Assembly: GCA_003233345.1 (NCBI GenBank)
Contig: QILK01000244.1
Span: 5,977 to 69,976 of the forward strand
DNA length: 64,000 nucleotides
Origin: Gammaproteobacteria bacterium
Lineage (GTDB): Bacteria; Pseudomonadota; Gammaproteobacteria; SZUA-21
Reading direction: 5' to 3'
Shown here: positions 6,829 to 59,477 of the stretch, piece after piece
Position numbering within the stretch: the stretch's first letter is position 1
Layout of the letters: each line of letters starts with the position of its first letter
Program-made: the position numbers and the translations under genes
The notes under the pieces: generated by a model
Told to the model about the DNA's origin: nothing
Database searches by the model: none
The model's input: the letters and a program-made list of their open reading frames with translations, nothing else

Positions 6829-7707
6829 TTATATGTTTAAGACGGGCATATCTTCATCTTCGATCCCCCGGCTTTCAATGCTAATGGAGATAGCAGCAAA
6901 TAATCCTGCTGATATTAATAGTATAACAACGTAGATCAGGCTAAATGCTTTTAGAACGGCTAAAGAGTATGGCAAAATAACAGCACCAGGCACTGGTGGT
7001 ATTATGCCTTTTGTCTTTAAGTAGGTTGCAACGATCAATAAGATTGGAAACAATATTGCGATAAGTATCCATAATATTTTAGTAAACCCTGCAAGCGCAG
7101 ATACAAAACTGCGTATTAGCGCGACGATATGAAAAAAGATTAATAAGCAAAAGGCGCCAAGTGCCATTGCTAAAGCGGGATCTTTCCACAGGTCCGGTTT
7201 CAACAGCATATTAACGTATCTGTCCCCCAAAGAGTTTTTTGAAAAAAGCTCAATTGAAAATGCTGCTAAAAATGCGATTGATCCCAGCAAAATTAATATT
7301 TTAGGTAAACGGTGTTCGGGGAATCGGCTTCCAAGGCCATTGCCAGCACCGATAAGTGCAACGGTCCACAAGGGCAAAAAAGCCAGCAGCGTATAGGTAG
7401 GCGCGGCGCCGTTAACAATTGCCAGCAAGGGCCAGGTGACAACGCCGAATACCATTAATAACAAAGCCAGTATACGGCCTTTTGTGGTGACGTAAAATAA
7501 AAATGGAATGACGGCTAACACCATTATTGCTATGACCATCGTTTTTTGCTTGCCCTGAATTTGTGATAGATCTAGAAGCGTCCAGATACCGTAAAATTCA
7601 GTTAGCCCATTACCGCTAACGATTATTGGTAAATAGACGGCAATAACAAGCAATATTCCACAGATTAAAGCCCATTTTTTTATCCAGCGGTAATCATCAT
7701 AGTACAT
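6829..7707 (-). CDS. Polytopic inner-membrane protein, unknown function
   Basis: 292-aa ORF that is almost entirely hydrophobic helices. Confidence 0.45.
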   Translation of the reverse strand: MYYDDYRWIKKWALICGILLVIAVYLPIIVSGNGLTEFYGIWTLLDLSQIQGKQKTMVIAIMVLAVIPFLFYVTTKGRILALLLMVFGVVTWPLLAIVNGAAPTYTLLAFLPLWTVALIGAGNGLGSRFPEHRLPKILILLGSIAFLAAFSIELFSKNSLGDRYVNMLLKPDLWKDPALAMALGAFCLLIFFHIVALIRSFVSALAGFTKILWILIAILFPILLIVATYLKTKGIIPPVPGAVILPYSLAVLKAFSLIYVVILLISAGLFAAISISIESRGIEDEDMPVLNI

Positions 7708-7892: not shown

Positions 7893-10169
7893 CTATGATC
7901 TGCGGTTCTCTCGCACTTTATTTTTTGACTCAATTGTCTCATGAGCAAAAATTCCCGGTGGTATTTGTATGGTAGTGTTTTGGTCGTGTACCTGTTGGGC
8001 ATTAAAGGTGGCCTGGTCAAGGTCATGAGATATTTTTGCGGGTGTATTTAGTAATATGTCTTGGTATTGTATTACCCGCTTTCGAAGTTGCAATACTAAA
8101 CGACAAGTCATGATCGACAGAGCCGCTAGTAATATCAGTATGGCCAGTGCAGAATAAAAGCTATTATCAAATTGAAGTTCTGAGTTGTAAAACAATAACT
8201 CTTTGAATAAAATACCTCCGACTATCAGTATTGGCATTAGCGCAGTGGTAATTATTGTTAATGCAAACGCAGATGTTTGCGGGTACACACCCATCCAGGG
8301 GATTTCAAATCCTTTATCTGCACTGGTTATGCGTTGCAAAAGGGCGCGTAAATGGACAATAAAATAAGTTAGAATGGCAAAAATTATAACGATACCAACA
8401 ATGCTGAGGTAGTCAGCAGGAATTGTTGCGCCAAACAGGGTCAACGTTCTGTTTAAGTCTTTAAGCCTGACAAACAAATCTTTTTCGAGGGAATCAAGGC
8501 TAAGATCATATTGGCCGTGTTTGCGAATATAGTGGTAGAGATCAGGGAACTGGTTTCTAAAATTTTTACTTTGGATGATGGTGCCAGGCACTTGTTTTTT
8601 TAGTGCTAGTTTATAGGCTATTCTGGTTTTCTGTGTGCCGGCAGTCTTTGCCAATATCATTTTCCTAAGATCAAAGTTGACCTGTCTTGTGCTCACCGGT
8701 ATAAAAGTATGTAAATCCGGTGTCACTTTATAGCTGTCCTTATCTGTCTTTGAGTTCGTCTTTAAGATGCTATAAGTTCTGAAATAAATATAATATCCTG
8801 ATTGATCACCGGAAGGATAGCTACCGAGTATCGATTGCATTTGCCTAGGGGGAATGGAGACCATGCTGAATACCCCCGTATGCTGGTAGTTGGAACCCTG
8901 TTTGTTTTTTGCGCTGTCGGTTGATGTAAATACGTTAACCGATCTTTTGTATTTAATTTTGTACTCTACGGCGTCAGCAGAATGAAGGCCAACGTTTTGA
9001 GACGACTTCGAAGGTGTGGCTTCAATAACGATAGCGTTATTTGCATAAATTTTATCGAATATATACAGTCTAATATCACCCATCTGATCCCATACGTTCA
9101 TCGCTTGCTCGATGGTTTCAGGTTTTCTTGATTCAAAATTTATCCCCGAGCGCTGCGAATTATTTAGCACAATGGCTCTGATTTGCTTCGATTTAGTGGT
9201 TTTATCACTTAGTGAACCGCCGCCGCCATTGCCAGAAAAGGTTTCCGTGATTGATGGGTCATGAGCCTTCTGGCATACAAAAGACGAGCCCTGGGAAAAA
9301 GTAGTATTCTTGATCAGTTGGTAATAACGACCAAAAAAATCAGGGTAATGATTGATAACATGTGGGAATTCGTAGGGTAGTGGTTTTGCCGCGTAGGTTA
9401 AAATACTGTGATATTGTGTTGTTTTGCTTTTTGCCTGCTTGCTTTTGGCGGCTGCTGGGGATGCACTTTTTCCTTGTTTTGTTCTCAGTCTTGCTTTGGC
9501 GCGTTTAGCTTTACTTGACTTATTACGTTGAGAAGTGGTTTTTCTCAGGGATATTTTGGTATTAAGGAGTCCGCCCTGGGTATATTTAGAAAACTCTAGC
9601 AAGGTATCCTTAAGTTTTTGGTTATTTATTTTCAGCCATTGATTATAACGTTCAGTGCAAAACTGATTAATAAGCCATCGGTTGTTAATCCTGTTGGTTT
9701 CCTGTGTAGCAAAAGCGGAATCGACAAAAGACCTAATGGGTTTTTGCTTGGGGAGATCACTTTGATTATTGTCCCAGTCAAGTTTAATGCCTTCATTGGC
9801 ATAGTTGTGTAGTTGCGATATAAATTCGTTTCCCAGGATAGTTGTGTATTTAAGGTGATTTTTGTTATTGCTTATATAGTCCTGTGTGCTCTGAGAAATA
9901 TTTTTCGAAAATTTCTTCACCGTTTTTAGGTCGTCTATGGCTTTGGATAAAGAATCAGAGTTAGTAAAAAAGATTGCGGTTGCCAACGCCAGGCTAGTGA
10001 TAATAAGGGCAAAGTGAATGCTGCGAAGATGAAATATCATTTTGCTATTATTAGCAGGCGTTTTTTTTGATTGAGCGTTATCGGTATCCATATAGTCGAG
10101 ATCCATTGGGGCTGTTGGCTTGCGCAGGCCGACTGTAGCGACTAGCGCTATCAGTAACAAACTAGTCAT
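7893..10169 (-). CDS. Large membrane protein of unknown function (N-terminal TM, big extracytoplasmic domain, C-terminal multi-TM)
   Basis: 758-aa ORF with a Lys/Ala/Ser-rich basic linker (KSSKAKRAKARLRTKQGK...) and no recognisable catalytic motif. Confidence 0.5.
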   Translation of the reverse strand: MTSLLLIALVATVGLRKPTAPMDLDYMDTDNAQSKKTPANNSKMIFHLRSIHFALIITSLALATAIFFTNSDSLSKAIDDLKTVKKFSKNISQSTQDYISNNKNHLKYTTILGNEFISQLHNYANEGIKLDWDNNQSDLPKQKPIRSFVDSAFATQETNRINNRWLINQFCTERYNQWLKINNQKLKDTLLEFSKYTQGGLLNTKISLRKTTSQRNKSSKAKRAKARLRTKQGKSASPAAAKSKQAKSKTTQYHSILTYAAKPLPYEFPHVINHYPDFFGRYYQLIKNTTFSQGSSFVCQKAHDPSITETFSGNGGGGSLSDKTTKSKQIRAIVLNNSQRSGINFESRKPETIEQAMNVWDQMGDIRLYIFDKIYANNAIVIEATPSKSSQNVGLHSADAVEYKIKYKRSVNVFTSTDSAKNKQGSNYQHTGVFSMVSIPPRQMQSILGSYPSGDQSGYYIYFRTYSILKTNSKTDKDSYKVTPDLHTFIPVSTRQVNFDLRKMILAKTAGTQKTRIAYKLALKKQVPGTIIQSKNFRNQFPDLYHYIRKHGQYDLSLDSLEKDLFVRLKDLNRTLTLFGATIPADYLSIVGIVIIFAILTYFIVHLRALLQRITSADKGFEIPWMGVYPQTSAFALTIITTALMPILIVGGILFKELLFYNSELQFDNSFYSALAILILLAALSIMTCRLVLQLRKRVIQYQDILLNTPAKISHDLDQATFNAQQVHDQNTTIQIPPGIFAHETIESKNKVRENRRS

Positions 10170-15220: not shown

Positions 15221-15263
15221 TGTCACCCTAGTCGTCGATCAAGGCGAACATTACGCATGCAAG

Positions 15264-15306
15264 TAGCCCGGACTTCGCGTAGCGAACGCCGGGGAAACGA
15301 ACATCG
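15264..15306. repeat. Solo terminal repeat of the MITE-like family (GTAGCCCGGACTTCGCGTAGCGAACGCCGGG)
   Basis: Near-identical to the ends of the elements at 44823, 51784 and 59232. It sits between convergent genes. Confidence 0.6.
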
Positions 15307-37384: not shown

Positions 37385-38059
37385 ATGATAAAAAGGATAA
37401 TTTCACTTTCAATAATAGTGCTACTTATTGGTTGTAATGTCGCTTTCGATTCCGCCTTATCATTACCCTCTGATAGTAGTAAACCTGATAGTAAGCTTAT
37501 GGGCACTTGGTATGCAGGTAGTGGCAAACCGTTTATAGGTTATTTGATCAGTGTCGGCACGCCTGTAGGTGATCCTCCTGCAAAAGTAACTATGGGTATT
37601 AATTTTAGTCTTTACGGTGATGATGGTTCGCTGATTCCGGCACAATATTGGGGTTACACATCGAAAATTAATAATGAGCGTTATTTGGTGATACTGTTTA
37701 AGCCTGTTAAGTATCACTTGTCAGGAGGTTTGTTTAACGGATTAAGTAAAAAGAAACTTTTAGCTTATATTTTTAAATATCAGCTAAAAAATAACAAACT
37801 CGTTATTAGTTGGCCTGATTCCGGTAAGATTGCCAGGGATTTAAAAAATGGTATTTTTAAATACGTAAAGGATAAAAATGATAAATCGGGTATTGACGCA
37901 ACCATTATACACACTGGTTCTGAAGAGTTAGTAGAATATTTTAAAAATAATACTAATCGTATATTTGATAAAGTACTTAACAGCAAGCGTCAGGAAGTAA
38001 TAGAATTAACCCGTTTAAATTTGGGTACAAAAACACAAAAGTTAAAAAAGGGGAAATAG
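37385..38059 (+). CDS. Lipoprotein, unknown function
   Basis: Signal peptide with lipobox LIGC. 224 aa. Confidence 0.5.
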   Translation: MIKRIISLSIIVLLIGCNVAFDSALSLPSDSSKPDSKLMGTWYAGSGKPFIGYLISVGTPVGDPPAKVTMGINFSLYGDDGSLIPAQYWGYTSKINNERYLVILFKPVKYHLSGGLFNGLSKKKLLAYIFKYQLKNNKLVISWPDSGKIARDLKNGIFKYVKDKNDKSGIDATIIHTGSEELVEYFKNNTNRIFDKVLNSKRQEVIELTRLNLGTKTQKLKKGK

Positions 38060-38083
38060 CTATTTCATGAGGGAGTATTTATC

Positions 38084-39010
38084 ATGAGTAAATACGTAAT
38101 TGAAGCTCGATCAATGGTCGTGAAAAACACATTCGGTATTGGCAGGCATAACTATTGGGTGATGCGTGAAGAAGGTACAAAAGGCAGCGACGGTGTTGTT
38201 GCCGAGCTTCATGGCATGGCTTATAACCGTAATACAAAAGAATATGTAACGATAGGTACAAGCGAGAAAGTTCATTCTCTGGGAGGGTTGCATATTGTCC
38301 ATGGTTATACTTATGCGAAACAGGTCCCAAAGCATCTTATTGATAAAACGCCCCAAGAACGCCGCATACATTCACTAATCGCCGATAATCAAAAATCTCA
38401 GGTAGTCTTTACCGGCAGTTTTGAAGACGTTAAGAAACGCTGGGCACAAGCAATAATGGGATCAAAAGAATTAAGTAATAAAGATCTAAATTATCCCCTG
38501 CTAGGGATTCAAGGGAAACCCGAACAGCTGGTTAACAGCAACTCCGCCTATGCTACATTTGCTGAGCTTATGGGTGTTAAAATACAGCGTTTCCCGGGCT
38601 ATGAGCCGGGTATAAAAAACCGCGTACTTTCACCAGAGCGAATCGACCAGCTTAAGTACCGGCCACAACAATCGATAAATCAAAAAAATATACACAGCAG
38701 CGTAGATCCAATTGCATACAATTCATTAACACACCACGAAAAACAGAATATCGCACCGGGTGAATTATGGAAAAAACTTGGTTTCTCCCCAAAAACCGAT
38801 GTGAAATCACAAGTGTATAATTTTGAAAACACAAAAGGCAATATAAAACAAATCGCAATGTATTCTTCAGATTCTGTAAAAGCGCTAAATACTGCCGATC
38901 GACGCGATCCCACACAAGTCCTAAATGATTATTATCAACAAATTGCTAAAAACCCCGAAAAAAATACCTCGAAACCTAAAAGACAGGATCAAGGGGTTGA
39001 CTATGTTTAA
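38084..39010 (+). CDS. Hypothetical cytoplasmic protein (308 aa), no recognisable domain
   Basis: A strong ORF 24 nt after the lipoprotein gene, preceded by the SD-like GAGGGAG. No signal peptide. Confidence 0.5.
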   Translation: MSKYVIEARSMVVKNTFGIGRHNYWVMREEGTKGSDGVVAELHGMAYNRNTKEYVTIGTSEKVHSLGGLHIVHGYTYAKQVPKHLIDKTPQERRIHSLIADNQKSQVVFTGSFEDVKKRWAQAIMGSKELSNKDLNYPLLGIQGKPEQLVNSNSAYATFAELMGVKIQRFPGYEPGIKNRVLSPERIDQLKYRPQQSINQKNIHSSVDPIAYNSLTHHEKQNIAPGELWKKLGFSPKTDVKSQVYNFENTKGNIKQIAMYSSDSVKALNTADRRDPTQVLNDYYQQIAKNPEKNTSKPKRQDQGVDYV

Positions 39011-40497: not shown

Positions 40498-40724
40498 AAA
40501 TTTGAAACTCCCCGATCCGAAAACAGCCGTATTTTAGCTATTTCTTTCTAATATGTACAATATTCTAGCACCCATAGGCGCGATTTAAAACCGTTAGTGT
40601 TAATTAAAAGTATACAAAAAGCAAGGCAAATTGATAGAAGTCAACGCAGTGTGGCTGCCGGAGTTTTTAGAATTAAACGGTATTTAATAAAGGATCTATT
40701 AGCCTAATAATCTTGAGAGTAAGG

Positions 40725-40756
40725 CTATAATTGAAAGCCGGGTTAAATACCCGGCC
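40725..40756 (-). terminator. Putative Rho-independent terminator of cspA
   Basis: Perfect 7-bp stem GCCGGGT/ACCCGGC with a 4-nt loop, followed on the minus strand by a T-rich run (CTTTCAATTAT), about 30 nt past the cspA stop. Confidence 0.45.
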
Positions 40757-40781
40757 TCCATAATTAAAGATCTAAGCTAAC

Positions 40782-40988
40782 TTATTCGCTAGTTTGAACC
40801 TTTAATGCTTGAGGACCTTTCGGCCCCTGTTCTACTTCATAAGTGACTTCTTGACCTTCGTTAAGTGTCTTGAACCCACCGCCTTCAATAACTGAAAAAT
40901 GTACGAACACATCGGGACTGCCATCAGAAGGAGCAATAAAACCGAAACCCTTGGAATCGTTAAACCATTTAACGGTACCTGTAGCCAT
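40782..40988 (-). CDS. cspA: Cold-shock protein, CspA family
   Basis: [21 protein letters not shown]1/RNP2 motifs, 68 aa. Confidence 0.9.
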
Positions 40989-41331
40989 GTAACTTACCTC
41001 TTAAATAAATATCAATACCCTATTGCAAAACATCCAAAGTTACAGACCGAGAAGACCAAGATGGTAATTCTGATTTGACCCAAAGAACGTGCAACAATTA
41101 ATCAATTAATCTGAAATCAAAAAGCAATGCAAAAATCTTTCTAAGGACATTCCAAACTGCACTCGATATTTTAGACTAATTCAGCAATTATATACCATAT
41201 TTAGGCACAGAATAAACTAAGTATGCAAAAAGAGTTTGTTTCGCAAGAATAAATATCAGGGAAAACAGGGCTGAACTGAAGGAAAATAGCAAAAATTACT
41301 GTAAGAACAGAATATTATTGGGGAATTACCA

Positions 41332-41529
41332 GTGAAAAAGCGTTTGAACGAACTAGAGTCCAGATTAACATTTCAGGACGATACTATACAGGAACTTAAT
41401 AAAGTACTAATACATCAGCAAAATCAGATTGATAATCTAGTCAGTCAGGTGGAGCAGCTGAAGCATTATATTCAGTCGATGGAGCCTCCAACGATGGAAA
41501 AACCGTCTGAGCCGCCACCGCATTATTGA
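41332..41529 (+). CDS. slyX: SlyX-family protein
   Basis: 65-aa coiled-coil starting LESRLTFQDDTIQELN, typical of SlyX. Confidence 0.8.
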   Translation: MKKRLNELESRLTFQDDTIQELNKVLIHQQNQIDNLVSQVEQLKHYIQSMEPPTMEKPSEPPPHY

Positions 41530-41556
41530 AAAAGGCTAGACTAAGGCTGTTTTAAC

Positions 41557-41757
41557 CACCTAAAGGCGATAAAAATTTACAGGCTGAATAGCGACTTTAG
41601 GGTTTTTATTTTCCTAAAGGCATTAACTATTTGTGGGTGAATGAGGTACTTTAGATTTTTATTTTCCTAAAGGCGTTAAATATTTGGGGGTAAATCAGGT
41701 GCTTTAGTTTTTTATTTTCCTAAAGGCGTTATATTTTTCTGCGCCAATCACCTGGTG
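41557..41757. repeat. Tandem array of about 3.5 copies of a 53-56-bp repeat (CTTTAGnTTTTTATTTTCCTAAAGGCGTTAAATATTTGGGGGTAAATCAGGTG)
   Basis: Direct tandem units at 41595, 41649 and 41702, with a partial unit starting at 41557. Intergenic, just after slyX. Confidence 0.7.
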
Positions 41758-42033
41758 AATTCGCAAAAAACCCAATAATATTAAAGGGATAAAGAAGGTT
41801 TTTCGATCTAAATTCGTGCATCAGTCACAATTTACAAGATTAGTATTAGTTGCCAAGCCCAATGTGATTGTCACACATTGACAACGCGTTGTTATGAATT
41901 AACTTAAGTCTATCTCAATCAAATCGGTAAATACTGCTTAACAAAATGTGAGCTTATTGCCGTTGGTGTTCCATATTTTATCTGTTGATGTTCCTAAGTA
42001 TTTGCTTGGCAATCCTGTCTGGAGGGATTCAAA

Positions 42034-44703: not shown

Positions 44704-44822
44704 AAGATAAAATATAGTTTAAAAATTAAACCGAATTACAAAATTTCGATATGAATATTACAACAATATTGACAAGGTATTGATTTGTCTTTATTAGTTT
44801 TTTTACTTAGTTAATTGAACAA

Positions 44823-44978
44823 GTAGCCCGGACTTCGCGTAGCGAACGCCGGGAGAACGAACATCCTCCTCTTCCGTGCTTTAGTCAGCTACCAACTACC
44901 TTGCGCATACGCTTGTTTCAATTGAATCTCGAACTCTATTCCTTTTCCCCGGCGTTCGCTGCGCGAAGTCCGGGCTAC
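44823..44978. mobile_element. MITE-like palindromic element (156 bp) with ~32-bp terminal inverted repeats
   Basis: GTAGCCCGGACTTCGCGTAGCGAACGCCGGG ... CCCGGCGTTCGCTGCGCGAAGTCCGGGCTAC. The core is the reverse complement of the core of the 59232 copy. Confidence 0.65.
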
Positions 44979-45018
44979 GGATCTACATTCTATGTAGAAA
45001 GGATTCGTTGGTCGCGGA

Positions 45019-46411: not shown

Positions 46412-47731
46412 TTAATGATTTTTATATTTTTCGATAATACTAATTAGATCGTTAATGGGCATGGCTTTGCCAATTTGATAACCTTGGGCACGGTTTACCC
46501 CGAGTTTTTTGATGTTTGTGAGTATCGCTTCGGACTCGACACCTTCACCTACTACTTCAAGCTTAAAGCGGTGTGCCAAGTCCGCGACAAGTTGAACGAT
46601 GTTCCAGTTTTCGCTGCCGACGCTTAGTCCCATCAGAAAAGATTTATCGATTTTAAGTTCATCAATAGGCAACCTGTTTAAGTAATTGAGTGAAGAAAAC
46701 CCAGTTCCAAAATCATCGATCGAAATTTTAGCGCCGATGTTCTTTAATGTATTAAGTATTCCGATAGTATGGTCAACATTATTCATCATGACACTTTCGG
46801 TTATCTCAAGTACTAAATTTGAAGCAGGTATACTCCACAACTTTATTGCCCGCCCAATGAATTCTACAAATTGGTAATCATCCAATAACGAAGATGAAAC
46901 GTTGATCGAGACCGAAATATCAGGGTGTTGCTCTAACAATTCACGGGATTGTCTAAGGGCTGTATTAACAACCCATTCCGAGAGCACCCGAGTGGTGTCT
47001 GTTTTTTCAGCTATTGGAAAAAATATTTCTGGCGAGATAAACCCGTGTTTATGGTTGTGCCATCGCGCCAATACTTCAAATCCAGATATTGACTGGGTTT
47101 GCAGACAAAGTTGTGGTTGATATAATAAAAACAGCTCATTCCTTTTTATTGATTCTGCTAAATCTTCTGCAAGCAAGTATTCTTTTTCAAATGCTTGATC
47201 AAACGAAGGGTCAAAAAACGAATAGGTTTGCCCACGGTCTATTGTGTATTCCAATGCTTTTTCCGCACATTGCAGTAATCGCGTGCCGGTATTAGCTGTA
47301 TCTGGAAAAATCACCGCGCCGATTTTTAGACGGGCTTTTATTTTTGTTTTATCAATACACAAGCCTTCATCCGTTATTCGTATAAGCTTGTCTATCGCCA
47401 GCAAAACGATATCTTCTGATGCGATCGGGTCAAGAAAAATCGCGATTCTATTTTCCTGCAGAACAAAAAAAAGATCATCGTTTCTTAGGATTGATTTTAG
47501 GTTGGTGACAACTTTCGAGCAAAAGCGAATGCCGGTTGCTACGCCATATTGCTTATCGATCGTTAGAAAATTATTAATCTCGACTAATAACAAAGATTTT
47601 TTAAAGGCTTGCCTGGCATTGATGTTCAGGCGTCTATCCAGGTTCTGAATGAGTTCGAGACGACTGGAATGTGCAGGTATATTTTCAGGGTTCAAATGAA
47701 AAATGCTCCAGGATCTATACCAAACGCCCAA
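46412..47731 (-). CDS. EAL-domain c-di-GMP phosphodiesterase with degenerate N-terminal GGDEF-like domain
   Basis: EVL variant of the EAL motif (GFEVLARW) plus downstream EAL motifs (DDFGTG, ELKIDKSF, KLEVVGEGVE). No GGDEF motif in the N-terminal domain. Confidence 0.8.
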   Translation of the reverse strand: MGVWYRSWSIFHLNPENIPAHSSRLELIQNLDRRLNINARQAFKKSLLLVEINNFLTIDKQYGVATGIRFCSKVVTNLKSILRNDDLFFVLQENRIAIFLDPIASEDIVLLAIDKLIRITDEGLCIDKTKIKARLKIGAVIFPDTANTGTRLLQCAEKALEYTIDRGQTYSFFDPSFDQAFEKEYLLAEDLAESIKRNELFLLYQPQLCLQTQSISGFEVLARWHNHKHGFISPEIFFPIAEKTDTTRVLSEWVVNTALRQSRELLEQHPDISVSINVSSSLLDDYQFVEFIGRAIKLWSIPASNLVLEITESVMMNNVDHTIGILNTLKNIGAKISIDDFGTGFSSLNYLNRLPIDELKIDKSFLMGLSVGSENWNIVQLVADLAHRFKLEVVGEGVESEAILTNIKKLGVNRAQGYQIGKAMPINDLISIIEKYKNH

Positions 47732-48924
47732 GGCTCGTGTGTGGTGACTATCTCCAGTGGTTTAGATTCTGCATCGGTTTCTACCAGAGCCAGGTCGATG
47801 ACAGGCAGGGCGTGGATCATCACATGCTTGTGGTCGAGAACGAGCATGACTCGTGGGCGCAGCCGTCGTGTGCGATTCTGACTTAAGACTATTCCGATTT
47901 CACCAGAAGACAGTTCGACAATACTACCAGTAGGAAATATCCCTAAACACTGGATAAATTCTTCTACCAGTTCACTTTGAAATTCAATATCGCGCCATTC
48001 ATATAAACAGCGAATGGCATTTAGAGGTGACAAAGCTTTGCAGTAGGATCGTTCGGTAGTGATTGCATCATAGCAATCGACAATAGCAGCAATACGGGAA
48101 AAAACCGGTATCTGCGATCCTTTGAGTCCTTGTGGATAGCCACTGCCGTTCGCCCTTTCGTGATGATGCATTGCAATTTCGATTGACTTGGTACTCATAT
48201 TTCCGCTTTGTTGCATAATCGACACGCTGTGTTCTACATGCGTTTTAACTAATTCAAACTCTTCTTCGCTAAGGCGGCCTGGTTTTGATAATAGACCGCG
48301 GGGAAGTTTAGTTTTACCAATATCGCAAAGCATGACGCCGACTGCCAAGTGGTTTAATTCGTTGACACTCAACCCAAGATGGCGGCCAAAGGCGACCGCC
48401 AGCGTAGCCGAGTCAATAGAATGCTTGTAGGCATAAGTGTCAATACATTTTAATTTGGTTAACCAAAGAAACGCATCTGGATTCCGAACAATGCTGGTAA
48501 CCATGTCTTTGACCAGCAATTTCATTTTTGATATTTCCAGCGCTTTATCATTTCCAGCGTCTTGCATCATTTGCTCGACCTGGGTTATCAGGCTGGAATG
48601 ACATTCTTTTGCGAATTTAATTTCATCCTCGACCAGCTTGGTATCCTGGTAACGTATGATTGCTTTTGGTAGGTCTGCTATTCGATTAGTTTTTTGGCCA
48701 GCGGCGGGAATATTTTGCAGTTGACTTTGATAGGGTGCTTTGTCGTGATCAATAAAGACATAAAGGCAATACTTACTTAGCGTATCGACTTCGCTCGTCG
48801 TGCGAATATAAAAACCTTGGAACAAAAAGGGCGTTTCCAGCCAAGGTCTGTCGAGTCTGGATACATACATTCCAACCTTGAGGTTAGCTATTTTTACTTT
48901 TGATTCCACGTGATAGTAACCCAT
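47692..48924 (-). CDS. HD-GYP domain c-di-GMP phosphodiesterase
   Basis: HD...HHERANGSGYP motif. It overlaps the EAL gene by 40 nt on the same strand. Confidence 0.8.
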   Translation of the reverse strand: MGYYHVESKVKIANLKVGMYVSRLDRPWLETPFLFQGFYIRTTSEVDTLSKYCLYVFIDHDKAPYQSQLQNIPAAGQKTNRIADLPKAIIRYQDTKLVEDEIKFAKECHSSLITQVEQMMQDAGNDKALEISKMKLLVKDMVTSIVRNPDAFLWLTKLKCIDTYAYKHSIDSATLAVAFGRHLGLSVNELNHLAVGVMLCDIGKTKLPRGLLSKPGRLSEEEFELVKTHVEHSVSIMQQSGNMSTKSIEIAMHHHERANGSGYPQGLKGSQIPVFSRIAAIVDCYDAITTERSYCKALSPLNAIRCLYEWRDIEFQSELVEEFIQCLGIFPTGSIVELSSGEIGIVLSQNRTRRLRPRVMLVLDHKHVMIHALPVIDLALVETDAESKPLEIVTTHEPWAFGIDPGAFFI

Positions 48925-49629: not shown

Positions 49630-51749
49630 TTAATTGCGCCGACTTTGCCTATGCTTTTTCTGTTTAGGTCGCGGCTTGCCGTGGCTTGGCTGCGAGTTCG
49701 GCACCAGCTGGTGTTTACCGCTACCGATCAAGTCAGACCGCCCCATTTTTTTCAGGGCATCACGTAAGATGGGCCAGTTCTTGGGGTCATGATAGCGTAA
49801 AAAAGCTTTATGCAGCTTGCGATTTTTTTCGCCCTTGACGGTATAGACATTCTCTGAGTCTTTTGTCACCCGTTTCAGTGGGTTTTTTTCTGAATGATAC
49901 ATTGCCGTCGCAACCGCGAGTGGTGATGGTAAAAAACCTTGCACCTGGTCGGGTCGAAAGCGATTGTGTTTTAACCATAGCGCAAGATTAAGCATATCAT
50001 TATCCGTTGTTCCTGGATGTGCGGAAATAAAATAAGGAATCAGGTATTGCTCCTTACCTGCTTCGGCAGAATATTTTTCGAAGAGTTGCTTAAATTCATT
50101 GTAGGCCCCAATGCCCGGTTTCATCATTTTATTCAACGGGCCTTGCTCGGTATGTTCGGGGGCGATTTTAAGATAGCCACCGACATGATGGGTGACCAGT
50201 TCTTTGATATATTCCGGTGAGCGCAGCGCTACGCTAGATCGTATCTAAGTCCCGAGGCAACAAATATCCGCTTAATACCCTTTATTTTTCGTGCACGCCG
50301 GTAGAGAGCGATCAAGGGGTCGTGGTTAGTGATAAGGTTTTTACAAATACCCGGAAATACGCACGATAAGCGTCGGCAGGACGCTTCTATTTTTTCGCTC
50401 TTGCAGGTTAACTTATACATGTTGGCCGTGGGGCCACCCAGATCGGAAATATTGCCGGTAAACCCTGGAACCGTATCGCGGATCGTTTCAATTTCACGAA
50501 TAACAGAATCTTCAGATCGGCTCTGGATTATTCGACCTTCATGCTCTGTTATCGAGCAAAAGGTGCAACCGCCAAAACAGCCGCGCATGATACTGATAGA
50601 GAAGCGAATCATTTCCCAGGCTGGTAGTTTTGCGTCTTTATAACTGGGGTGCGGTTTACGGGTATAAGGCAGCTCGTAGAGTTTATCCAGCTCTTCCGTG
50701 GCCAAGGGGTATGGCGGCGGGTTGAGCCAAATATAGCGTTTATCATGGCGCTGCATTAGCGCACGTGCGTTACCCGGATTTGTTTCCATGTGAAATACAC
50801 GCGAAGTATGTGCATATAGTATTGGATCGGCGACAACCCGGTCATACGGGGGAAGGCGGATAACCGTCTTATTTCTGTTAGGGACGAATTTTACGACCTG
50901 CCCACTATCGGGTTGATTCACCGGTTTATTGGTATTTTCATCTACGCGACAATCTTTGTTCCAGGCATACGGGTCAGGGGGATTTTCTATTCGCCCGAGT
51001 TTGTCTACGTTAGTAGAATCGATAATTGTCCAGTTGTCGAGCGGGCCTTTATTCATAAAAGCGGTGCCGCGAATATCGATTAGTTTATCGATAGTCTCGC
51101 CATTGGCCAATCTATGTGCGATCTCGGTAATCGCCCGTTCGGCGTTACCGAACACCAGCAGGTCCGCTTTTGAGTCAGGCAGAATGGATCGTCTGACCTT
51201 ATCGGACCAATAATCATAATGGGCGATACGGCGTAGGCTGGCTTCAATACCACCAATAATTACCGCAACGTTTTTATAGGCTTCCCTGATGCGTTGTGAA
51301 TAAACGATAACAGAACGATCAGGACGTTTACCACCAACGCCGTGGGGCGTATAAGAATCGTCGGTGCGAATTTTACGATCCGAAGTATAACGGTTTATCA
51401 TTGAGTCCATATTGCCAGCGGTAATACCAAAAAAAAGATTGGGTTTACCAAGTTCCATAAACGCCGTTTTTGATTGAAAGTCGGGTTGGGCAATGATCCC
51501 TACGCGGAAACCTTGTGATTCCAGCAGGCGTCCTACCAGGGCCATGCCAAAGCTTGGGTGATCGACATAGGCATCGCCGGTGACGATGATAATATCGCAA
51601 CTGTCCCACCCAAGCTGATCCATCTCTGCACGCGACATGGGCAAGACCGGGGCAATGCCAAATCGCTTGGCCCAGTAGGGACGGTAAGAAAATAGTTTTT
51701 TAGCAGCTAGCATGGCCGCTATTATGGTCGACTTACGGTTACGCTGCAA
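49630..51749 (-). pseudogene. ygiQ: ygiQ (UPF0313 radical SAM protein), split by a frameshift near 50229-50247
   Basis: The 506-aa ORF (CxxxCxxC radical SAM box CFGGCTFC) ends ...GLRYDLA*. The next frame reads ...[36 protein letters not shown], continuing E. coli YgiQ collinearity into the 168-aa ORF. Confidence 0.7.
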
Positions 51750-51783: not shown

Positions 51784-51943
51784 ACTAGTAGCCCGGACTT
51801 CGCGTAGCGAACGCCGGGAAAAAAATGATCTTAATTTCAATCAAAAACCTGCAACCCTTCTGCCAGAGCATATCGGGTACATCTGGCTTTGCAGTTGTTA
51901 TAATGTTCGTTTCCCGGCGTTCGCTGCGCGAAGTACGGGCTAC
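51784..51943. mobile_element. MITE-like palindromic element (160 bp), same TIR family, different core
   Basis: The TIRs match the 44823 and 59232 copies. It fills the divergent intergenic region between ygiQ and the SirB2-like gene. Confidence 0.65.
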
Positions 51944-52364: not shown

Positions 52365-52871
52365 CTAGGCTTTGCGCATCCAGCCGACAGCGACCCTGGG
52401 CTGTAATATAGAATAGGCATTGTTGTTATATTCTAGCGAAAATATTTGTCGTGGTTTTCCGAATATATTTTGCTGGATAATTTCTACCTGGCCATCACTG
52501 ACTGAAGTGACTATGCCTAAATGACCATATTGAGAGTCATGAAATACCAGGATATCATCACGGGCCGGGCGCATAGGGCCATGATTATTGAATTGAATAA
52601 GACCACGCGCCGGGTTCAGGGTATTGTCAGCTAGGTTTGCATCAAAGAAGTCCCGGGCGTGACCCCAGATATTGGGCATTTCGTGTGACTTGGCAAGTCG
52701 ATAAAAGCGTTTTATATATTCTACACACTGCCATTTTTGGCCATAGTAATAGCCATCATCGGCATAGTGCTTTCCCTGGCTGTGATGAAAATGAAAGCCA
52801 TTTTCAAAAGCAGGTACCTGCTTGTAGCTATCAATTTGTGAACCAATGTTTGCGCTGTCCCAAATTAACAT
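52365..52871 (-). CDS. Cytoplasmic CHAP-domain (Gsp-amidase-like cysteine peptidase/amidase) protein
   Basis: Candidate catalytic Cys in WQCVEYIKRF and His in SQYGHLGIVTSV. No signal peptide. The start is 3 nt after the upstream gene's stop. Confidence 0.55.
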   Translation of the reverse strand: MLIWDSANIGSQIDSYKQVPAFENGFHFHHSQGKHYADDGYYYGQKWQCVEYIKRFYRLAKSHEMPNIWGHARDFFDANLADNTLNPARGLIQFNNHGPMRPARDDILVFHDSQYGHLGIVTSVSDGQVEIIQQNIFGKPRQIFSLEYNNNAYSILQPRVAVGWMRKA

Positions 52872-52874
52872 AGG

Positions 52875-54047
52875 CTAACCACCTATCCACTGGCGAATAC
52901 GCGAAGACAGGGATTGAATATCAGTGCCATTACAGATTTCGACTTGTAGGTCGGCTGCGCGTTGCCGGTCAAATCGATTTAATTCACCGTAACTGACTAA
53001 CATTGCTTGACCATGGAGTCCGCCTAACAGATCTTTTAGCGTATCGAGCTTGTAAATGGCTTCGGCTCCTGAACCTGACTGGCCGTTCGAGCGTCCGAAG
53101 TGCTTGGTTTTGCATTCAATGATATAAAGTTTATTGTTTGCAAGAAACGCGACATCAATTTCGTTACGGACAACAGGGTTACCCGTTCCGCGAGTGATTT
53201 CCACACTGCGGCCGACATCCTGTATCATCGGGACTTGCTTGCGCAATGTATTTATCACGGCATAGACATGTTCTTCAAGCCAGCCACCGTTTACATAAAA
53301 ACGTTCATCTTCACCTGCGAACACAATTCTGCCATTTTCTATTGATAAAAACCGGTTGTTCTCGAACTTCGATAAAAGATAATCAAATTCTGGATTACCA
53401 CGCAGATGCCGATCTTGTAACGGTGGTGAAACCAGACGTTCGGCCTGGTGCGCATACCAGTTCAGAGCTCTAAGTGGCCCCTGTAATTGGCTTACTTTGT
53501 TAACCAGATCGACAGTGGTTTTTTGGTGGCTAGCATCGATGCTATCGGTTTTGATTGCTTCCAGCTTAGCGCCGTGGGCTGACAGGAATGCACGTAGCTT
53601 GATTTTGTCGGCGATTGCATGCGCTGCCTGGTTTTCTGGATTAATCCAGGCTATTTCGTCTTTTTCCGGGTGAACATAGAATATCGGCTTGTTCTCGGCA
53701 CGAAAAACGTCATAGGCGGCAATCGATAACAGCTTATTTCCGCCAGAAAGATTTAGTATTAAATTTTTATCTTCGTATTTTGCCAGCAGGTCGATTAACT
53801 GATTGCGGATGGCTTCAATATTCCACGGATCATTAAGGTCGAGAAACTCTACTTTGACACCGGTGGGCTTTATCGTTGTTGCAAGATGGCGGGCAGTTTG
53901 CCGCGATTGTTGATGCTGTACCAAGACGATCTTGTCCGGCCTAAATTGAGGATCGAGTACCGGTGTTATATTGGCAGCTGGACGGTCGGAAACCAGAGAG
54001 ACAATAATATCTGCTTTTAAATGGGTAGTGTTTTTTGCTGGTGACAC
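52875..54047 (-). CDS. Card1/Can1-like CARF-domain + PD-(D/E)xK nuclease (candidate cyclic-oligoadenylate-activated effector)
   Basis: The N-terminal Rossmann-like domain ends strand 4 with NLSGGNK, matching the CARF motif [DN]x[ST]xxx[RK]. The C-terminus carries a restriction-endonuclease motif: GGWLEEHV helix Glu, D298 (EIDVAFL), E311-C-K313 (IIECKTK). Length is 390 aa. Confidence 0.5.
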   Translation of the reverse strand: MSPAKNTTHLKADIIVSLVSDRPAANITPVLDPQFRPDKIVLVQHQQSRQTARHLATTIKPTGVKVEFLDLNDPWNIEAIRNQLIDLLAKYEDKNLILNLSGGNKLLSIAAYDVFRAENKPIFYVHPEKDEIAWINPENQAAHAIADKIKLRAFLSAHGAKLEAIKTDSIDASHQKTTVDLVNKVSQLQGPLRALNWYAHQAERLVSPPLQDRHLRGNPEFDYLLSKFENNRFLSIENGRIVFAGEDERFYVNGGWLEEHVYAVINTLRKQVPMIQDVGRSVEITRGTGNPVVRNEIDVAFLANNKLYIIECKTKHFGRSNGQSGSGAEAIYKLDTLKDLLGGLHGQAMLVSYGELNRFDRQRAADLQVEICNGTDIQSLSSRIRQWIGG

Positions 54048-54206
54048 GGTGATTGTTGGTTTTATGTATTACTATAACCGCTATTATTAACAGCCATTAG
54101 ATTACGTCAAAAACGCCGCAATTAGTAGTAATATCGACTATAAAGATATCTGTTCCGGCTCATCTATCATCCTGGCATTGTCCGGAACAGCGGGTAACAA
54201 AACCGG

Positions 54207-54542
54207 CTAGCTACAGCCTTTTGGTCGCGGCAATCCAGCGATTTTGTTTGCGCATTTGATTAAACCGGTTGGGAATAGCGAATAAATGTATTTTTGGCTG
54301 CTCCTGTCCGCGCCAAATTTTTTTTTCATCATTTTTGAGAATACTCTTGGCTCTGCCACAACGCCATATTCATTAAAGTGTTCTCTCGCCATTGTAATGA
54401 TATCCCAGTGTTCCGGTGATAATTCGGGTACCTGTTCATTGACGGCAATTTTTGCTGCCAGATCTTCCGACCATTCTTCTAAATTTTCCAGCCAACCAGC
54501 CTCGCTGAGCTGAATTGTCTGGCCATTGACTTCTGTCTGCAT
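54207..54542 (-). CDS. tusE: TusE/DsrC-family sulfurtransferase
   Basis: 111 aa with a C-terminal ...PKGCS tail carrying the conserved Cys, and DsrC-like core motifs. Confidence 0.7.
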   Translation of the reverse strand: MQTEVNGQTIQLSEAGWLENLEEWSEDLAAKIAVNEQVPELSPEHWDIITMAREHFNEYGVVAEPRVFSKMMKKKFGADRSSQKYIYSLFPTGLIKCANKIAGLPRPKGCS

Positions 54543-59173: not shown

Positions 59174-59231
59174 AATCCGATCAGGACTAGTGCTCCGCCC
59201 AATTAATTTTTCACGCAAAGTGCCTATATCC

Positions 59232-59378
59232 GTAGCCCGGACTTCGCGCAGCGAATGCCGGGGAAAAAGGAGCAGGGTTCAAAATTCAGTTAAAACAGGC
59301 GTATGCGCAAGGTAGTTGGTAGCAGAGAAAAACAGAATGTTCGTTCTCCCGGCGTTCGCTTCGCGAAGTCCGGGCGAC
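59232..59378. mobile_element. MITE-like palindromic element (147 bp), inverted relative to the 44823 copy
   Basis: It has the same TIRs. The core GCGTATGCGCAAGGTAGTTGGTAG is the reverse complement of the 44823 copy's core. Confidence 0.65.
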
Positions 59379-59477
59379 TGGTACAATTGACTAAGTGAAA
59401 AAATTAATTGGGCTGACGACAAACCAGACTGCGATAAGTGTTGTGTCAGTCAAGTCTGCCATGAACAGGACAGTAGT

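What the first reader, a model, noticed from the sequence alone, without database searches (positions are those of the whole stretch)
52365..54047. Orphan Card1-like CARF-nuclease gene coupled to a cytoplasmic CHAP peptidase
The 390-aa protein has a CARF-like N-terminal domain, with the family motif [DN]x[ST]xxx[RK] present as NLSGGNK after a predicted beta-strand. Its C-terminus has a PD-(D/E)xK nuclease motif (helix Glu, then D298, E311, K313). This is the Card1/Can1 architecture of cyclic-oligoadenylate-activated nucleases from type III CRISPR, yet no cas genes, CRISPR array or cyclase appear anywhere in the 64 kb. Its stop is 3 nt from the start of a signal-less CHAP-domain gene (Gsp-amidase-like Cys/His). 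I do not know this pairing as a described system. It could be a stand-alone signal-activated abortive-infection module, or the CHAP enzyme could act on the ligand or a conjugate.
Basis: partly seen in the sequence, partly recalled or inferred. Interest (0 to 1): 0.75.

Follow-up and report, generated by a model that had tools for sequence, protein, structure and literature searches.

The report
Unlinked Can2/Card1 nuclease beside CHAP amidase
The gene is a genuine, intact relative of the CRISPR helper nucleases Can2/Card1 sitting in an ordinary chromosomal neighbourhood with no CRISPR genes nearby, but its tight pairing with the CHAP enzyme looks like a local accident of gene order rather than a new two-gene defence system.

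Summary
Window 52875-54047 (-) encodes a 390-aa protein with a Card1-type CARF domain and a Card1-type PD-(D/E)xK nuclease domain. The AF2 model has pLDDT 94.6 and superposes on VC1899 and cA4-bound Can2. CHAP starts 3 nt after its stop, lacks a signal peptide and resembles Gsp amidase. I found no cas gene, CRISPR array or Cas10/CD-NTase in the 64 kb.

The proposed Card1-CHAP system is not supported.
- None of 79 related Can2 loci has a CHAP neighbour.
- Of 80 CHAP-family loci, only one has Can2, and it is a 97.7%-identical strain of the same organism.
- In the two nearest relatives (55% identity) the order tusE-can2-CHAP-ygiQ is kept. There a DeaD helicase gene on the opposite strand separates can2 from CHAP.

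The nuclease is not a relic. Its catalytic residues are invariant and Ka/Ks is 0.08. Three of the four conserved cA4-contact residues are kept, unlike in VC1899. Fifty of the 79 relatives lie in type III-B CRISPR loci.

Best reading: a cOA-gated Can2-family nuclease physically unlinked from its cyclase, with incidental CHAP adjacency. Whether the genome holds a Cas10 elsewhere could not be tested. It is a new member of a known kind, of modest interest.

The parts
52875..54047 (-). Can2/Card1-family gene (390 aa): N-terminal CARF domain plus C-terminal PD-(D/E)xK nuclease
   Evidence: Pfam PF23400 and PF09002. PADLOC CARF4--CARF_PDDEXK 2.3e-120. PDB hits 1xmx, 7bdv and 6wxw. AF2 pLDDT 94.6. Foldseek TM 0.87 to 1xmx and 0.79-0.81 to 7bdv.
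53592..54008 (-). CARF domain (residues 14-152). It holds S20, H45, K105 and Y124, which align to the cA4 contacts S19, T42, K99 and Y118 of SthCan2. The motif NLSGGNK is residues 99-105.
   Evidence: Alignment to 7bdv. Contact residues taken from PMC7969007. Column counts.
52887..53309 (-). PD-(D/E)xK nuclease domain (residues 247-387) with the NGGW motif, E258, N295-E296, D298 and E311-C312-K313
   Evidence: These residues are invariant in 119 homologues and in all 68 clade members counted.
52365..52871 (-). Stand-alone cytoplasmic CHAP (Gsp-amidase-like) cysteine amidase gene, 168 aa, catalytic C49 and H117
   Evidence: Pfam PF05257 4.2e-14. PDB trypanothione and Gsp amidase domains. AF2 pLDDT 87.7. 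Foldseek 3a30 2.1e-9, TM 0.73. Invariant columns.
52872..52884 (-). Junction: AGGTGG (52879-52884), TAG stop of can2 (52875-52877), 3-nt spacer CCT (52872-52874). Both genes are in the same reading frame.
   Evidence: Sequence read. The stop and the 3-nt spacing are kept in a 97.7%-identical strain, where the junction is TAG TCT ATG.
54083..54110 (-). Sigma-70-like promoter candidate (TTGACG-16-AATAAT, 10 of 12 matches) upstream of can2
   Evidence: This is a consensus match only: 8 sites were found in the region against 6.6 expected by chance.
54205..54218 (-). Short hairpin followed by a T-run, overlapping the tusE stop. It is a possible terminator separating tusE from can2.
   Evidence: consensus match only. 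Sequence read.
54207..54542 (-). DsrC/TusE-family gene upstream. It is a syntenic neighbour in the two nearest relatives, not shown to be functionally linked.
   Evidence: Pfam PF04358 5.3e-35. TIGR03342 at 6.7e-31. The adjacency is conserved in L081 and L083 with a 12-nt gap.
49630..51749 (-). ygiQ radical-SAM gene, the downstream end of the syntenic block. It is interrupted in this window.
   Evidence: L081 and L083 carry CHAP followed by ygiQ.

Best explanation
The 390-aa gene encodes a functional Can2/Card1-family (CARF4, DUF1887) effector.

Inferred mechanism, by analogy with solved relatives: the protein is a homodimer. Its two CARF domains clamp a cyclic oligoadenylate, most likely cA4. 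Binding re-orients the two PD-(D/E)xK domains so that they nick DNA and/or cut single-stranded RNA.

Shown here:
- Family membership and fold.
- Intact catalytic residues.
- Strong purifying selection.
- Retention of three of the four conserved cA4-contact residues.

Inferred, not shown: that the ligand is still cA4, and that it is made by a Cas10 encoded elsewhere in the genome.

The gene sits in a vertically inherited housekeeping block, GT4 ... tusE - can2 - (deaD) - CHAP - (sirB) - ygiQ. The 3-nt coupling to CHAP arose in this lineage only, because no gene lies between them here. The CHAP protein belongs to a widespread stand-alone Gsp-amidase-like family with its own, unrelated role.
For: Membership and fold.

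Catalytic residues: N295, E296, D298, E311, C312 and K313 are invariant in 68 of 68 sequences.

Selection: Ka/Ks is 0.084 between the two orthologues L081 and L083. That is as low as the neighbouring ygiQ (0.12), CHAP (0.12) and tusE (0.05).

Ligand pocket: the window has S20, K105 and Y124, matching SthCan2 S19, K99 and Y118. The cas-linked relatives carry S in 48 of 50, K in 49 of 50 and Y in 50 of 50. The fourth contact (T42) is H45 in the window but S in both orthologues.

Ancestry: 50 of 79 related loci carry Cmr3, Cmr5, RAMP, Csm6-type, Csx16 or Cas1 genes.

Precedent for effectors acting at a distance: cyclase-positive type III loci that lack effectors may activate effectors encoded elsewhere (PMC11229360).

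Incidental CHAP adjacency: 0 of 79 Can2 loci have CHAP. Only 1 of 80 CHAP loci has Can2, and it is the same species. CHAP homologues sit in unrelated contexts. DeaD lies between the two genes in L081 and L083. A TusE-like gene sits directly upstream of CHAP without Can2 in L099.

Resident gene: GC and GC3 lie within about 1.6 SD of other window genes. No defence genes flank it.
Against: - No Cas10 or other cOA synthase was found in 64 kb, and the rest of the genome could not be examined. The source of any ligand is therefore unknown.
- H45 and N104 depart from the S/T and T seen in almost all cas-linked relatives. The ligand may differ.
- VC1899, the best PDB sequence match, is an orphan that cA4 does not activate (PMC7969007).
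- In all three genomes of this lineage can2 and CHAP stay within 2 kb of each other. Gene order around ygiQ is otherwise not conserved among gammaproteobacteria whose YgiQ is equally similar. A functional link within the block cannot be excluded.
Confidence: 0.6

Rival explanations
1. A CRISPR-independent orphan sensor nuclease. The lineage has been permanently recruited away from type III CRISPR and now responds to a different small molecule or nucleic-acid end, or has a constitutive housekeeping or stress role, as proposed for VC1899 or for the CARF domain of RtcR.
For: - The window protein and its two orthologues form a 100%-bootstrap lineage, and none of the three has cas genes within 6-10 kb.
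- The gene is embedded in a housekeeping block under strong purifying selection.
- The best PDB sequence hit is the orphan VC1899.
- H45 and N104 deviate from the cas-linked consensus.
- A separate 15-member orphan clade (94% bootstrap) has a conserved, remodelled pocket. This shows the family can leave CRISPR loci and change its pocket.
Against: - The pocket of this lineage keeps S20, K105 and Y124 like the cas-linked proteins. It lacks the acidic and hydrophobic replacements that make VC1899 unable to bind cA4 (D9, D34, V115; PMC7969007).
- The two orthologues keep all four contact positions as S, S, K and Y.
- Absence of cas genes in 6-10 kb flanks says nothing about the rest of the genome.
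Confidence: 0.25
2. A two-gene Card1-CHAP abortive-infection module. CHAP would act with the nuclease, for example by processing a ligand conjugate or as a second effector.
For: - The 3-nt spacing with a Shine-Dalgarno-like motif inside the can2 3' end suggests co-translation.
- That spacing is kept in a 97.7%-identical strain.
- Proximity within 2 kb is conserved in all three genomes of the lineage.
- Literature lead: in Psychrobacter lutiphocae a DUF1887 effector lies next to an LRAT-like hydrolase and a radical SAM enzyme (PMC12825302). My own knowledge, not tested here: LRAT-like hydrolases are papain-fold enzymes like CHAP.
- An M23 peptidase gene is operonic with Can2 in Beggiatoaceae.
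Against: - 0 of 79 Can2 loci have CHAP, and 1 of 80 CHAP loci has Can2 (same species).
- No CHAP, NlpC or LRAT family was listed as recurring among 221 neighbour representatives.
- In the nearest relatives the genes are in different transcription units, separated by a convergent DeaD gene.
- The CHAP family is widespread. Named members come from Verrucomicrobia, KSB1 and Clostridium at about 50% identity, and the contexts examined are unrelated.
- PADLOC has no hit for the CHAP protein.
Confidence: 0.08
3. A decaying relic: a former CRISPR ancillary gene cast adrift and no longer functional.
For: - VC1899 was interpreted this way in PMC7969007.
- The start is GTG with no obvious Shine-Dalgarno motif.
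- No cas genes are nearby.
Against: - Ka/Ks is 0.084.
- The ORF is full length in four independent assemblies.
- All catalytic residues and most pocket residues are conserved.
- The AF2 model has pLDDT 94.6.
Confidence: 0.04

Closest known systems
Can2 / Card1 (SthCan2 7BDV, TsuCan2, Treponema Card1 6WXW; CARF4 clade, DUF1887/PF09002)
   Same: - Same two-domain architecture and fold (Foldseek E 1e-31, TM 0.79-0.81 to cA4-bound 7bdv).
- Same catalytic E...D...ExK residues.
- S, K and Y of the four cA4 contacts shared by Can1 and Can2 are kept.
- Nearest sequence relatives outside its own lineage (38-51% identity) lie mostly in type III-B loci.
   Different: - No cas genes or CRISPR array within 64 kb.
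- The fourth contact is His instead of Thr/Ser.
- N104 replaces the near-invariant Thr.
- Only 23-25% identical to the solved Can2.
VC1899 (Vibrio cholerae, PDB 1XMX), the published orphan DUF1887 protein
   Same: - Best solved match (2.9e-50, 30% identity, TM 0.87).
- Also not next to a type III system.
- Nuclease residues are conserved.
   Different: VC1899 has D9, D34, R96 and V115 at the four contact positions and is not regulated by cA4 (PMC7969007). The window protein has S20, H45, K105 and Y124, a pocket much closer to active Can2. In the tree VC1899 is an outgroup to the whole set.
Cdn1 (Psychrobacter lutiphocae, PDB 8Z4I/9U49), a Can2-family RNase activated by cA4 and cA6
   Same: - Same family and fold (Foldseek 2.2e-24).
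- Its paper describes its locus as adjacent to a radical SAM enzyme and an LRAT-like hydrolase (PMC12825302). That loosely parallels CHAP and YgiQ here.
   Different: - Cdn1 lies inside a type III-B locus.
- It is only about 20% identical.
- Whether its neighbours are related to CHAP or YgiQ was not testable here.
E. coli glutathionylspermidine amidase domain / trypanothione synthetase-amidase (CHAP)
   Same: - The CHAP protein shares the fold and the Cys-His dyad.
- It is cytoplasmic, like Gsp amidase.
   Different: - It is stand-alone at 168 aa.
- No Gsp-synthetase domain (Gsp amidase is fused to one in E. coli) turned up in the 35 window ORFs scanned with Pfam. The only ATP-grasp protein found is a D-Ala-D-Ala ligase about 41 kb away.
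- 36 of 57 family members carry an N-terminal membrane anchor.
- The substrate is unknown.

Membership tests
Can2/Card1 (CARF4, DUF1887) | N-terminal CARF (Rossmann-like) domain of the Card1 type | tested here: met
   PF23400 at 4.8e-16, residues 14-152, above its cut-off. The AF2 model shows a beta-alpha repeat. Foldseek matches the CARF domains of Can2, Card1, Cam1, Csm6 and Csa3.
Can2/Card1 (CARF4, DUF1887) | C-terminal PD-(D/E)xK nuclease domain with an intact catalytic Glu, Asp and ExK | tested here: met
   PF09002 at 1.5e-28. E258, D298, E311 and K313 are invariant in 119 homologues and in 68 of 68 clade members.
Can2/Card1 (CARF4, DUF1887) | cA4-contact residues conserved between Can1 and Can2 (SthCan2 S19, T42, K99, Y118) | tested here: inconclusive
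   The window has S20, H45, K105 and Y124, so three of four are identical. The two orthologues have S, S, K and Y. Actual ligand binding was not tested.
Can2/Card1 (CARF4, DUF1887) | Encoded in or next to a type III CRISPR-Cas locus | tested here: not met
   No cas gene or CRISPR array in the 64-kb window. Fifty of 79 relatives are cas-linked. The rest of the genome was not available.
Can2/Card1 (CARF4, DUF1887) | Homodimer whose nuclease activity is switched on by a cyclic oligoadenylate | not testable with these tools
   This needs biochemistry or a multimer and ligand model. Only a monomer model was possible.
VC1899-type degenerate orphan | Ligand pocket lined by acidic and hydrophobic residues incompatible with cA4 (D9, D34, V115) | tested here: not met
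   The equivalent window residues are S20, H45 and Y124.
CHAP / Gsp-amidase-like cysteine amidase | CHAP fold with a catalytic Cys-His dyad | tested here: met
   PF05257 at 4.2e-14. C49 and H117 are invariant in 57 sequences. Foldseek 3a30 at 2.1e-9, TM 0.73.
CHAP / Gsp-amidase-like cysteine amidase | Paired with a glutathionylspermidine synthetase domain, as in bifunctional Gsp synthetase/amidase | tested here: not met
   The protein is 168 aa with a single domain. NCBIfam gives PRK10507 at only 37.6 bits against a cut-off of 882. No Gsp-synthetase domain was found in the 35 window ORFs scanned with Pfam, the flanking genes included.
Conserved two-gene defence system (Can2 + CHAP) | Co-occurrence of the two genes across independent lineages | tested here: not met
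   0 of 79 Can2 loci have CHAP. 1 of 80 CHAP loci has Can2, and it is the same species. DeaD lies between the genes in L081 and L083.
Defence island | Neighbouring genes belong to known defence systems | tested here: not met
   PADLOC on 10 flanking genes gave only an 18-bit HD-domain match. Pfam shows PBP1A, Ddl, PpnN, P450 and c-di-GMP and two-component signalling genes.

The most novel reading that the evidence does not exclude
The tusE-can2-CHAP(-ygiQ) block could be a CRISPR-independent unit. In it a still ligand-competent Can2-type nuclease would be gated by a signal not made by Cas10. The Gsp-amidase-like CHAP enzyme would make, destroy or respond to that signal. The evidence does not exclude this, because the three genes stay within 2 kb of each other in all three known genomes of the lineage, while gene order around ygiQ differs in the other gammaproteobacteria examined.
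Probability: 0.08. Interest if true: 0.7.

Novelty: new member of a known kind. Interest (0 to 1): 0.3.

Why it matters
Can2/Card1 effectors are understood only as accessories of type III CRISPR loci. The one studied orphan, VC1899, looked dead with respect to cA4. This gene is an orphan by location, yet it is under strong purifying selection and keeps most of the cA4-contact residues.

That makes it a useful test case for two possibilities. CARF effectors may routinely act at a distance from their cyclase, as suggested by the inter-locus signalling analysis in PMC11229360. Or some may have been recruited to CRISPR-independent signalling.

The practical message for genome scanning is a caution. 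A 3-nt gene junction is not evidence of a functional pair unless the pairing recurs in independent lineages.

Tried and rejected
1. Exact-sequence look-ups of the Can2 protein (window reference and P0001) found no contig. The CHAP protein did, giving L093.
2. I could not name the organism. No source names the window proteins. YgiQ homologues at 72-76% identity come from many sulfur-oxidising gammaproteobacteria, including Sedimenticola, Thiodiazotropha and Sulfuriflexus, with no resolution. Rfam found no RNA gene in the window.
3. An initial NJ tree suggested one 18-member orphan clade containing the window protein. Bootstrapping gave it only 25% support. I therefore dropped that claim and kept only the trio (100%) and the 15-member Beggiatoaceae-type clade (94%).
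4. I tested whether Can2 relatives recurrently neighbour papain-fold hydrolases or radical SAM enzymes, prompted by the Cdn1 paper. Among 221 neighbour representatives, none was listed as recurrent for the former and Radical_SAM matched only 2. Caveat: families matched by a single member are not all listed.
5. The paper search for 'DUF1887' plus 'CHAP' gave nothing relevant.
6. Makarova et al. 2020 (CARF classification) is not held, so I could not check what it says about CARF4 members outside CRISPR loci.
7. One wasted paper search ('Card1' matched the unrelated CARD11 and CARD14 literature).
8. The promoter and terminator scan gives only consensus matches near chance level. They are listed as candidates only.
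Full report

Yes. The minus strand carries a 390-aa ORF (52875-54047, GTG start) followed by a 168-aa ORF (52365-52871). The junction reads GGT GGT TAG CCT ATG, so three bases separate the stop from the start. An AGGTGG motif lies 7 nt before the ATG.

The 390-aa protein:
- It matches Pfam CARF_Card1 (4.8e-16, residues 14-152) and Card1_endonuc (1.5e-28, residues 247-387), both above the curated cut-offs.
- It matches the PADLOC model CARF4--CARF_PDDEXK at 2.3e-120.
- Among solved structures it aligns over nearly its whole length to VC1899 (2.9e-50), SthCan2 (7.5e-40) and Card1 (1.3e-21).
- An AlphaFold2 model built on 119 homologues has mean pLDDT 94.6 and pTM 0.92.
- Foldseek places the model on 1XMX (TM 0.87) and on cA4-bound Can2 7BDV (TM 0.79-0.81). 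Cdn1, Card1 and other Can2 structures follow.

The 168-aa protein:
- It is a CHAP domain (4.2e-14).
- Its nearest solved relatives by sequence and by fold are the amidase domains of glutathionylspermidine and trypanothione synthetase.
- C49 and H117 are invariant.
- It has no N-terminal hydrophobic segment.

**2. Surroundings in the window**

Thirty-five window ORFs, the larger ones included, were scanned with Pfam. They are ordinary chromosomal genes: PBP1A, D-Ala-D-Ala ligase, PpnN, a P450, pirin, a pseudouridine synthase, an ABC transporter, histidine kinases and response regulators, GGDEF/EAL proteins, a VWA protein and a fatty-acid hydroxylase. By sequence motif, 47692-48924 is an HD-GYP protein.

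- No window ORF other than can2 resembles the cas genes found next to relatives.
- No CRISPR-like array was found.
- Rfam found nothing.
- PADLOC on ten flanking genes gave only an 18-bit generic HD-domain match.

The gene is therefore not in a defence island. Its GC and GC3 lie within about 1.6 SD of the other genes, so there is no sign of recent transfer.

The immediate order on the minus strand is P-II, GT4 glycosyltransferase, DsrC/TusE, can2, CHAP, then SirB on the plus strand, then ygiQ. A sigma-70-like site (54110-54083) and a small hairpin at the tusE stop suggest can2-CHAP may be its own unit. These are consensus matches at about chance frequency.

**3. Relatives of the nuclease**

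The protein database holds 371 homologues. Only two clusters exceed 50% identity, P0002 and P0003 at 54-55%.

A scan of one genome per species returned 79 usable loci at 37-51% identity. They come mainly from Methylococcales, Chromatiaceae, Beggiatoaceae, other Thiotrichales and Nitrosomonas. Their conserved neighbours are a Csm6-type (Cas02710) protein, Cas1, RAMPs, Cmr3, Cmr5 and Csx16, which means type III-B CRISPR-Cas loci.
- Fifty of the 79 loci carry at least one such gene.
- Eighteen of the 29 loci with at least 5 kb on both sides do so.
- None of the 79 has a CHAP neighbour.
- Among 221 representatives of the non-cas neighbours, no papain-fold hydrolase family was listed as recurring. 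Radical_SAM matched only two.

**4. The nearest relatives and the gene block**

P0002 (an NCBI MAG) and P0003 (an ENA assembly) show the same order: GT4 ... DsrC/TusE, then can2 after a 12-nt gap, then CHAP, then ygiQ. A 614-617-aa DeaD-box helicase gene lies between can2 and CHAP on the opposite strand, convergent with can2.

So the block is syntenic in this lineage, but in the relatives can2 and CHAP are not co-transcribed. The 3-nt coupling is specific to the window organism. It recurs in L093, an otherwise identical JGI contig. It also recurs in L094, a 97.7%-identical marine-sediment strain whose junction is TAG TCT ATG.

Other gammaproteobacteria with equally similar YgiQ (72-76%) have entirely different ygiQ neighbourhoods. 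The block therefore marks a real but small lineage.

Between the two relatives Ka/Ks is 0.084 for can2, 0.117 for CHAP, 0.049 for tusE and 0.120 for ygiQ. The nuclease gene is under selection as strong as its housekeeping neighbours.

**5. The CHAP side**

The CHAP protein belongs to a large family of 165-212-aa single-domain proteins that are 48-65% identical to it. Named members come from Verrucomicrobia, candidate division KSB1 and Clostridium. Thirty-six of 57 aligned members have an N-terminal hydrophobic anchor. The window protein and its closest relatives lack it.

Three homologue contexts were examined: an NRPS cluster, a cluster beside S8 peptidases, and a SlyX...SPL...SDR region. None contains Can2. 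In 80 metagenomic CHAP loci (495 kb) a Can2 profile hits only L094, the same species as the window. One locus, L099, has a TusE-like gene directly upstream of CHAP with no Can2 between them. This fits can2 being a guest within a tusE/CHAP neighbourhood, but it is a single case.

**6. Is the sensor still a cOA sensor?**

Zhu et al. (PMC7969007) identified four contacts conserved between Can1 and Can2: SthCan2 S19, T42, K99 and Y118. They showed that VC1899 has D9, D34, R96 and V115 there and is not regulated by cA4.

| Contact (SthCan2) | Window | P0002 / P0003 | 50 cas-linked relatives |
|---|---|---|---|
| S19 | S20 | S | S in 48 |
| T42 | H45 | S | S/T in 48 |
| K99 | K105 | K | K in 49 |
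| Y118 | Y124 | Y | Y in 50 |

Sources.

The window lineage thus keeps a Can2-like pocket, with two local departures in the window protein itself: H45, and N104 in place of the usual T. This favours retained binding of cA4 or a close relative. It does not prove it.

**7. Phylogeny**

In a neighbour-joining tree the window protein groups with P0002 and P0003 at 100% bootstrap. A first tree placed this trio inside an 18-member clade with no cas neighbours, but that grouping has only 25% support, so I do not rely on it. VC1899 and SthCan2 fall outside the whole set.

**8. Most likely mechanism**

Shown: this is an intact, selected Can2/Card1-family protein whose relatives are mostly type III-B accessories.

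Inferred by analogy with the solved Can2, Card1 and Cdn1 structures (PMC7969007, PMC9704534, PMC12825302):
- It forms a homodimer.
- It binds a cyclic oligoadenylate across the CARF dimer.
- Binding activates metal-dependent DNA nicking and/or ssRNA cleavage.

Where the signal comes from is open. A Cas10 encoded elsewhere is the simplest source, and action at a distance has been proposed from genome statistics (PMC11229360). I could not inspect the rest of the genome.

The main rival is a CRISPR-independent role with another ligand (about 0.25). The two-gene Card1-CHAP module is unlikely (about 0.08). Gene decay is very unlikely (about 0.04).

**9. Comparison with what is known, and novelty**

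The protein meets the structural definition of Can2/Card1. It fails the contextual criterion of type III linkage within the window. It does not share the degenerate pocket of VC1899.

Orphan CARF genes are already known. VC1899 is one (PMC7969007), and the 2025 CRISPR classification notes the abundance of CARF homologues outside CRISPR-Cas systems (PMC12669027). This is therefore a new member of a known kind.

The tight junction with a Gsp-amidase-like CHAP gene is real but lineage-specific. It is best explained by local gene order. Interest is modest (0.3). The residual novel reading, a CRISPR-independent tusE-can2-CHAP unit, gets about 8%.

Noticed in passing
window 50227-50236 (within ygiQ, 49630-51749, minus strand): ygiQ is split into 506-aa and 168-aa ORFs by a 5-bp tandem duplication (CTAGCG|TAGCG) that creates a stop. 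An otherwise identical JGI metagenome contig (L093, 0 mismatches over 12.7 kb) lacks the duplication and reads through. This is either a strain-level pseudogene or an assembly error.
   Followed up: yes
L004, L007, L019, L021, L027, L040, L059 and others (Beggiatoaceae and other Thiotrichales); e.g. L027:99-4614: A 15-member clade of Can2 homologues (94% bootstrap) has no cas neighbours and a consistently remodelled CARF pocket: S20 to H/Y, Q22 to T, V44 to H/Y, T101 to S, K105 to R. All nuclease residues stay invariant. In five loci (L004, L007, L021, L027, L059) the upstream order Ser/Thr kinase - M23 peptidase - can2 is conserved. In L021 and L027 the M23 gene abuts can2 (2-nt gap, 4-nt overlap). 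Three of the five (L004, L021, L027) also carry a sugar-transferase gene upstream of the kinase. This could be a Can2 branch with a different ligand.
   Followed up: partly
L048:8694-11137 and L045:63-1465: In two Thiotrichaceae/Thiolinea loci a gene overlaps the start of the Can2 homologue by 4 nt. In L048 it is a HipA-family kinase gene (HipA_C 2.1e-45). In L045 only its 3' end is on the contig. This looks like a toxin-antitoxin-like context without cas genes.
   Followed up: no
L099:4478-5489 (metagenome contig UOFL01000222.1): A DsrC/TusE-like gene (37% identical to the window's) lies 145 nt upstream of a CHAP homologue (58% identical) on the same strand, with no Can2 gene between them. 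Two Parabeggiatoa loci (L004, L007) also have a TusE-like gene 370-500 nt downstream of can2. The recurrence of DsrC/TusE-family genes near these genes is unexplained.
   Followed up: partly
window 52869-52877: can2 and CHAP are in the same reading frame, separated only by TAG CCT. Read-through of the stop would give a 560-aa CARF-nuclease-CHAP fusion. The stop is kept in a 97.7%-identical strain (TAG TCT), so the two are treated as separate genes. An in-frame arrangement is a 1-in-3 chance event.
   Followed up: partly
window 51787-51822, 15262-15297 and 44819-44854; also 59228-59408 against 44793-44982: There are dispersed intergenic repeats. A 36-bp element occurs at least three times at 97% identity; one copy lies between sirB and ygiQ. 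A roughly 190-bp element is present twice at 84% identity. They may be REP-like or miniature mobile elements.
   Followed up: no
window 41594-41738: A 53-bp tandem repeat of 2.7 copies (88% matches) in a 1.5-kb stretch (40498-42033) in which no ORF of 70 aa or more was called.
   Followed up: no
CHAP family alignment A3: The CHAP family splits into two forms. Thirty-six of 57 members have an N-terminal hydrophobic anchor preceded by basic residues. A soluble form of about 167-170 aa includes the window protein. The core motif GYYYGQKWQCVE(Y/F)(I/V)KRFY and the QQN motif are almost invariant across phyla. The family has no assigned function.
   Followed up: partly
literature: PMC12825302 (Cdn1, Psychrobacter lutiphocae type III-B locus): The paper describes a DUF1887 effector and Csm6 positioned next to a radical SAM enzyme and an LRAT-like hydrolase. 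This loosely parallels can2-CHAP-ygiQ in the window. I could not fetch that locus to see whether the neighbours are homologous.
   Followed up: no
window 7893-10169 (-), 3326-4504 (-), 6829-7707 (-), 37385-39010 (+): Several sizeable ORFs (758, 392, 292, 224 and 308 aa) have no Pfam match at E <= 1e-4 or 1e-5.
   Followed up: no
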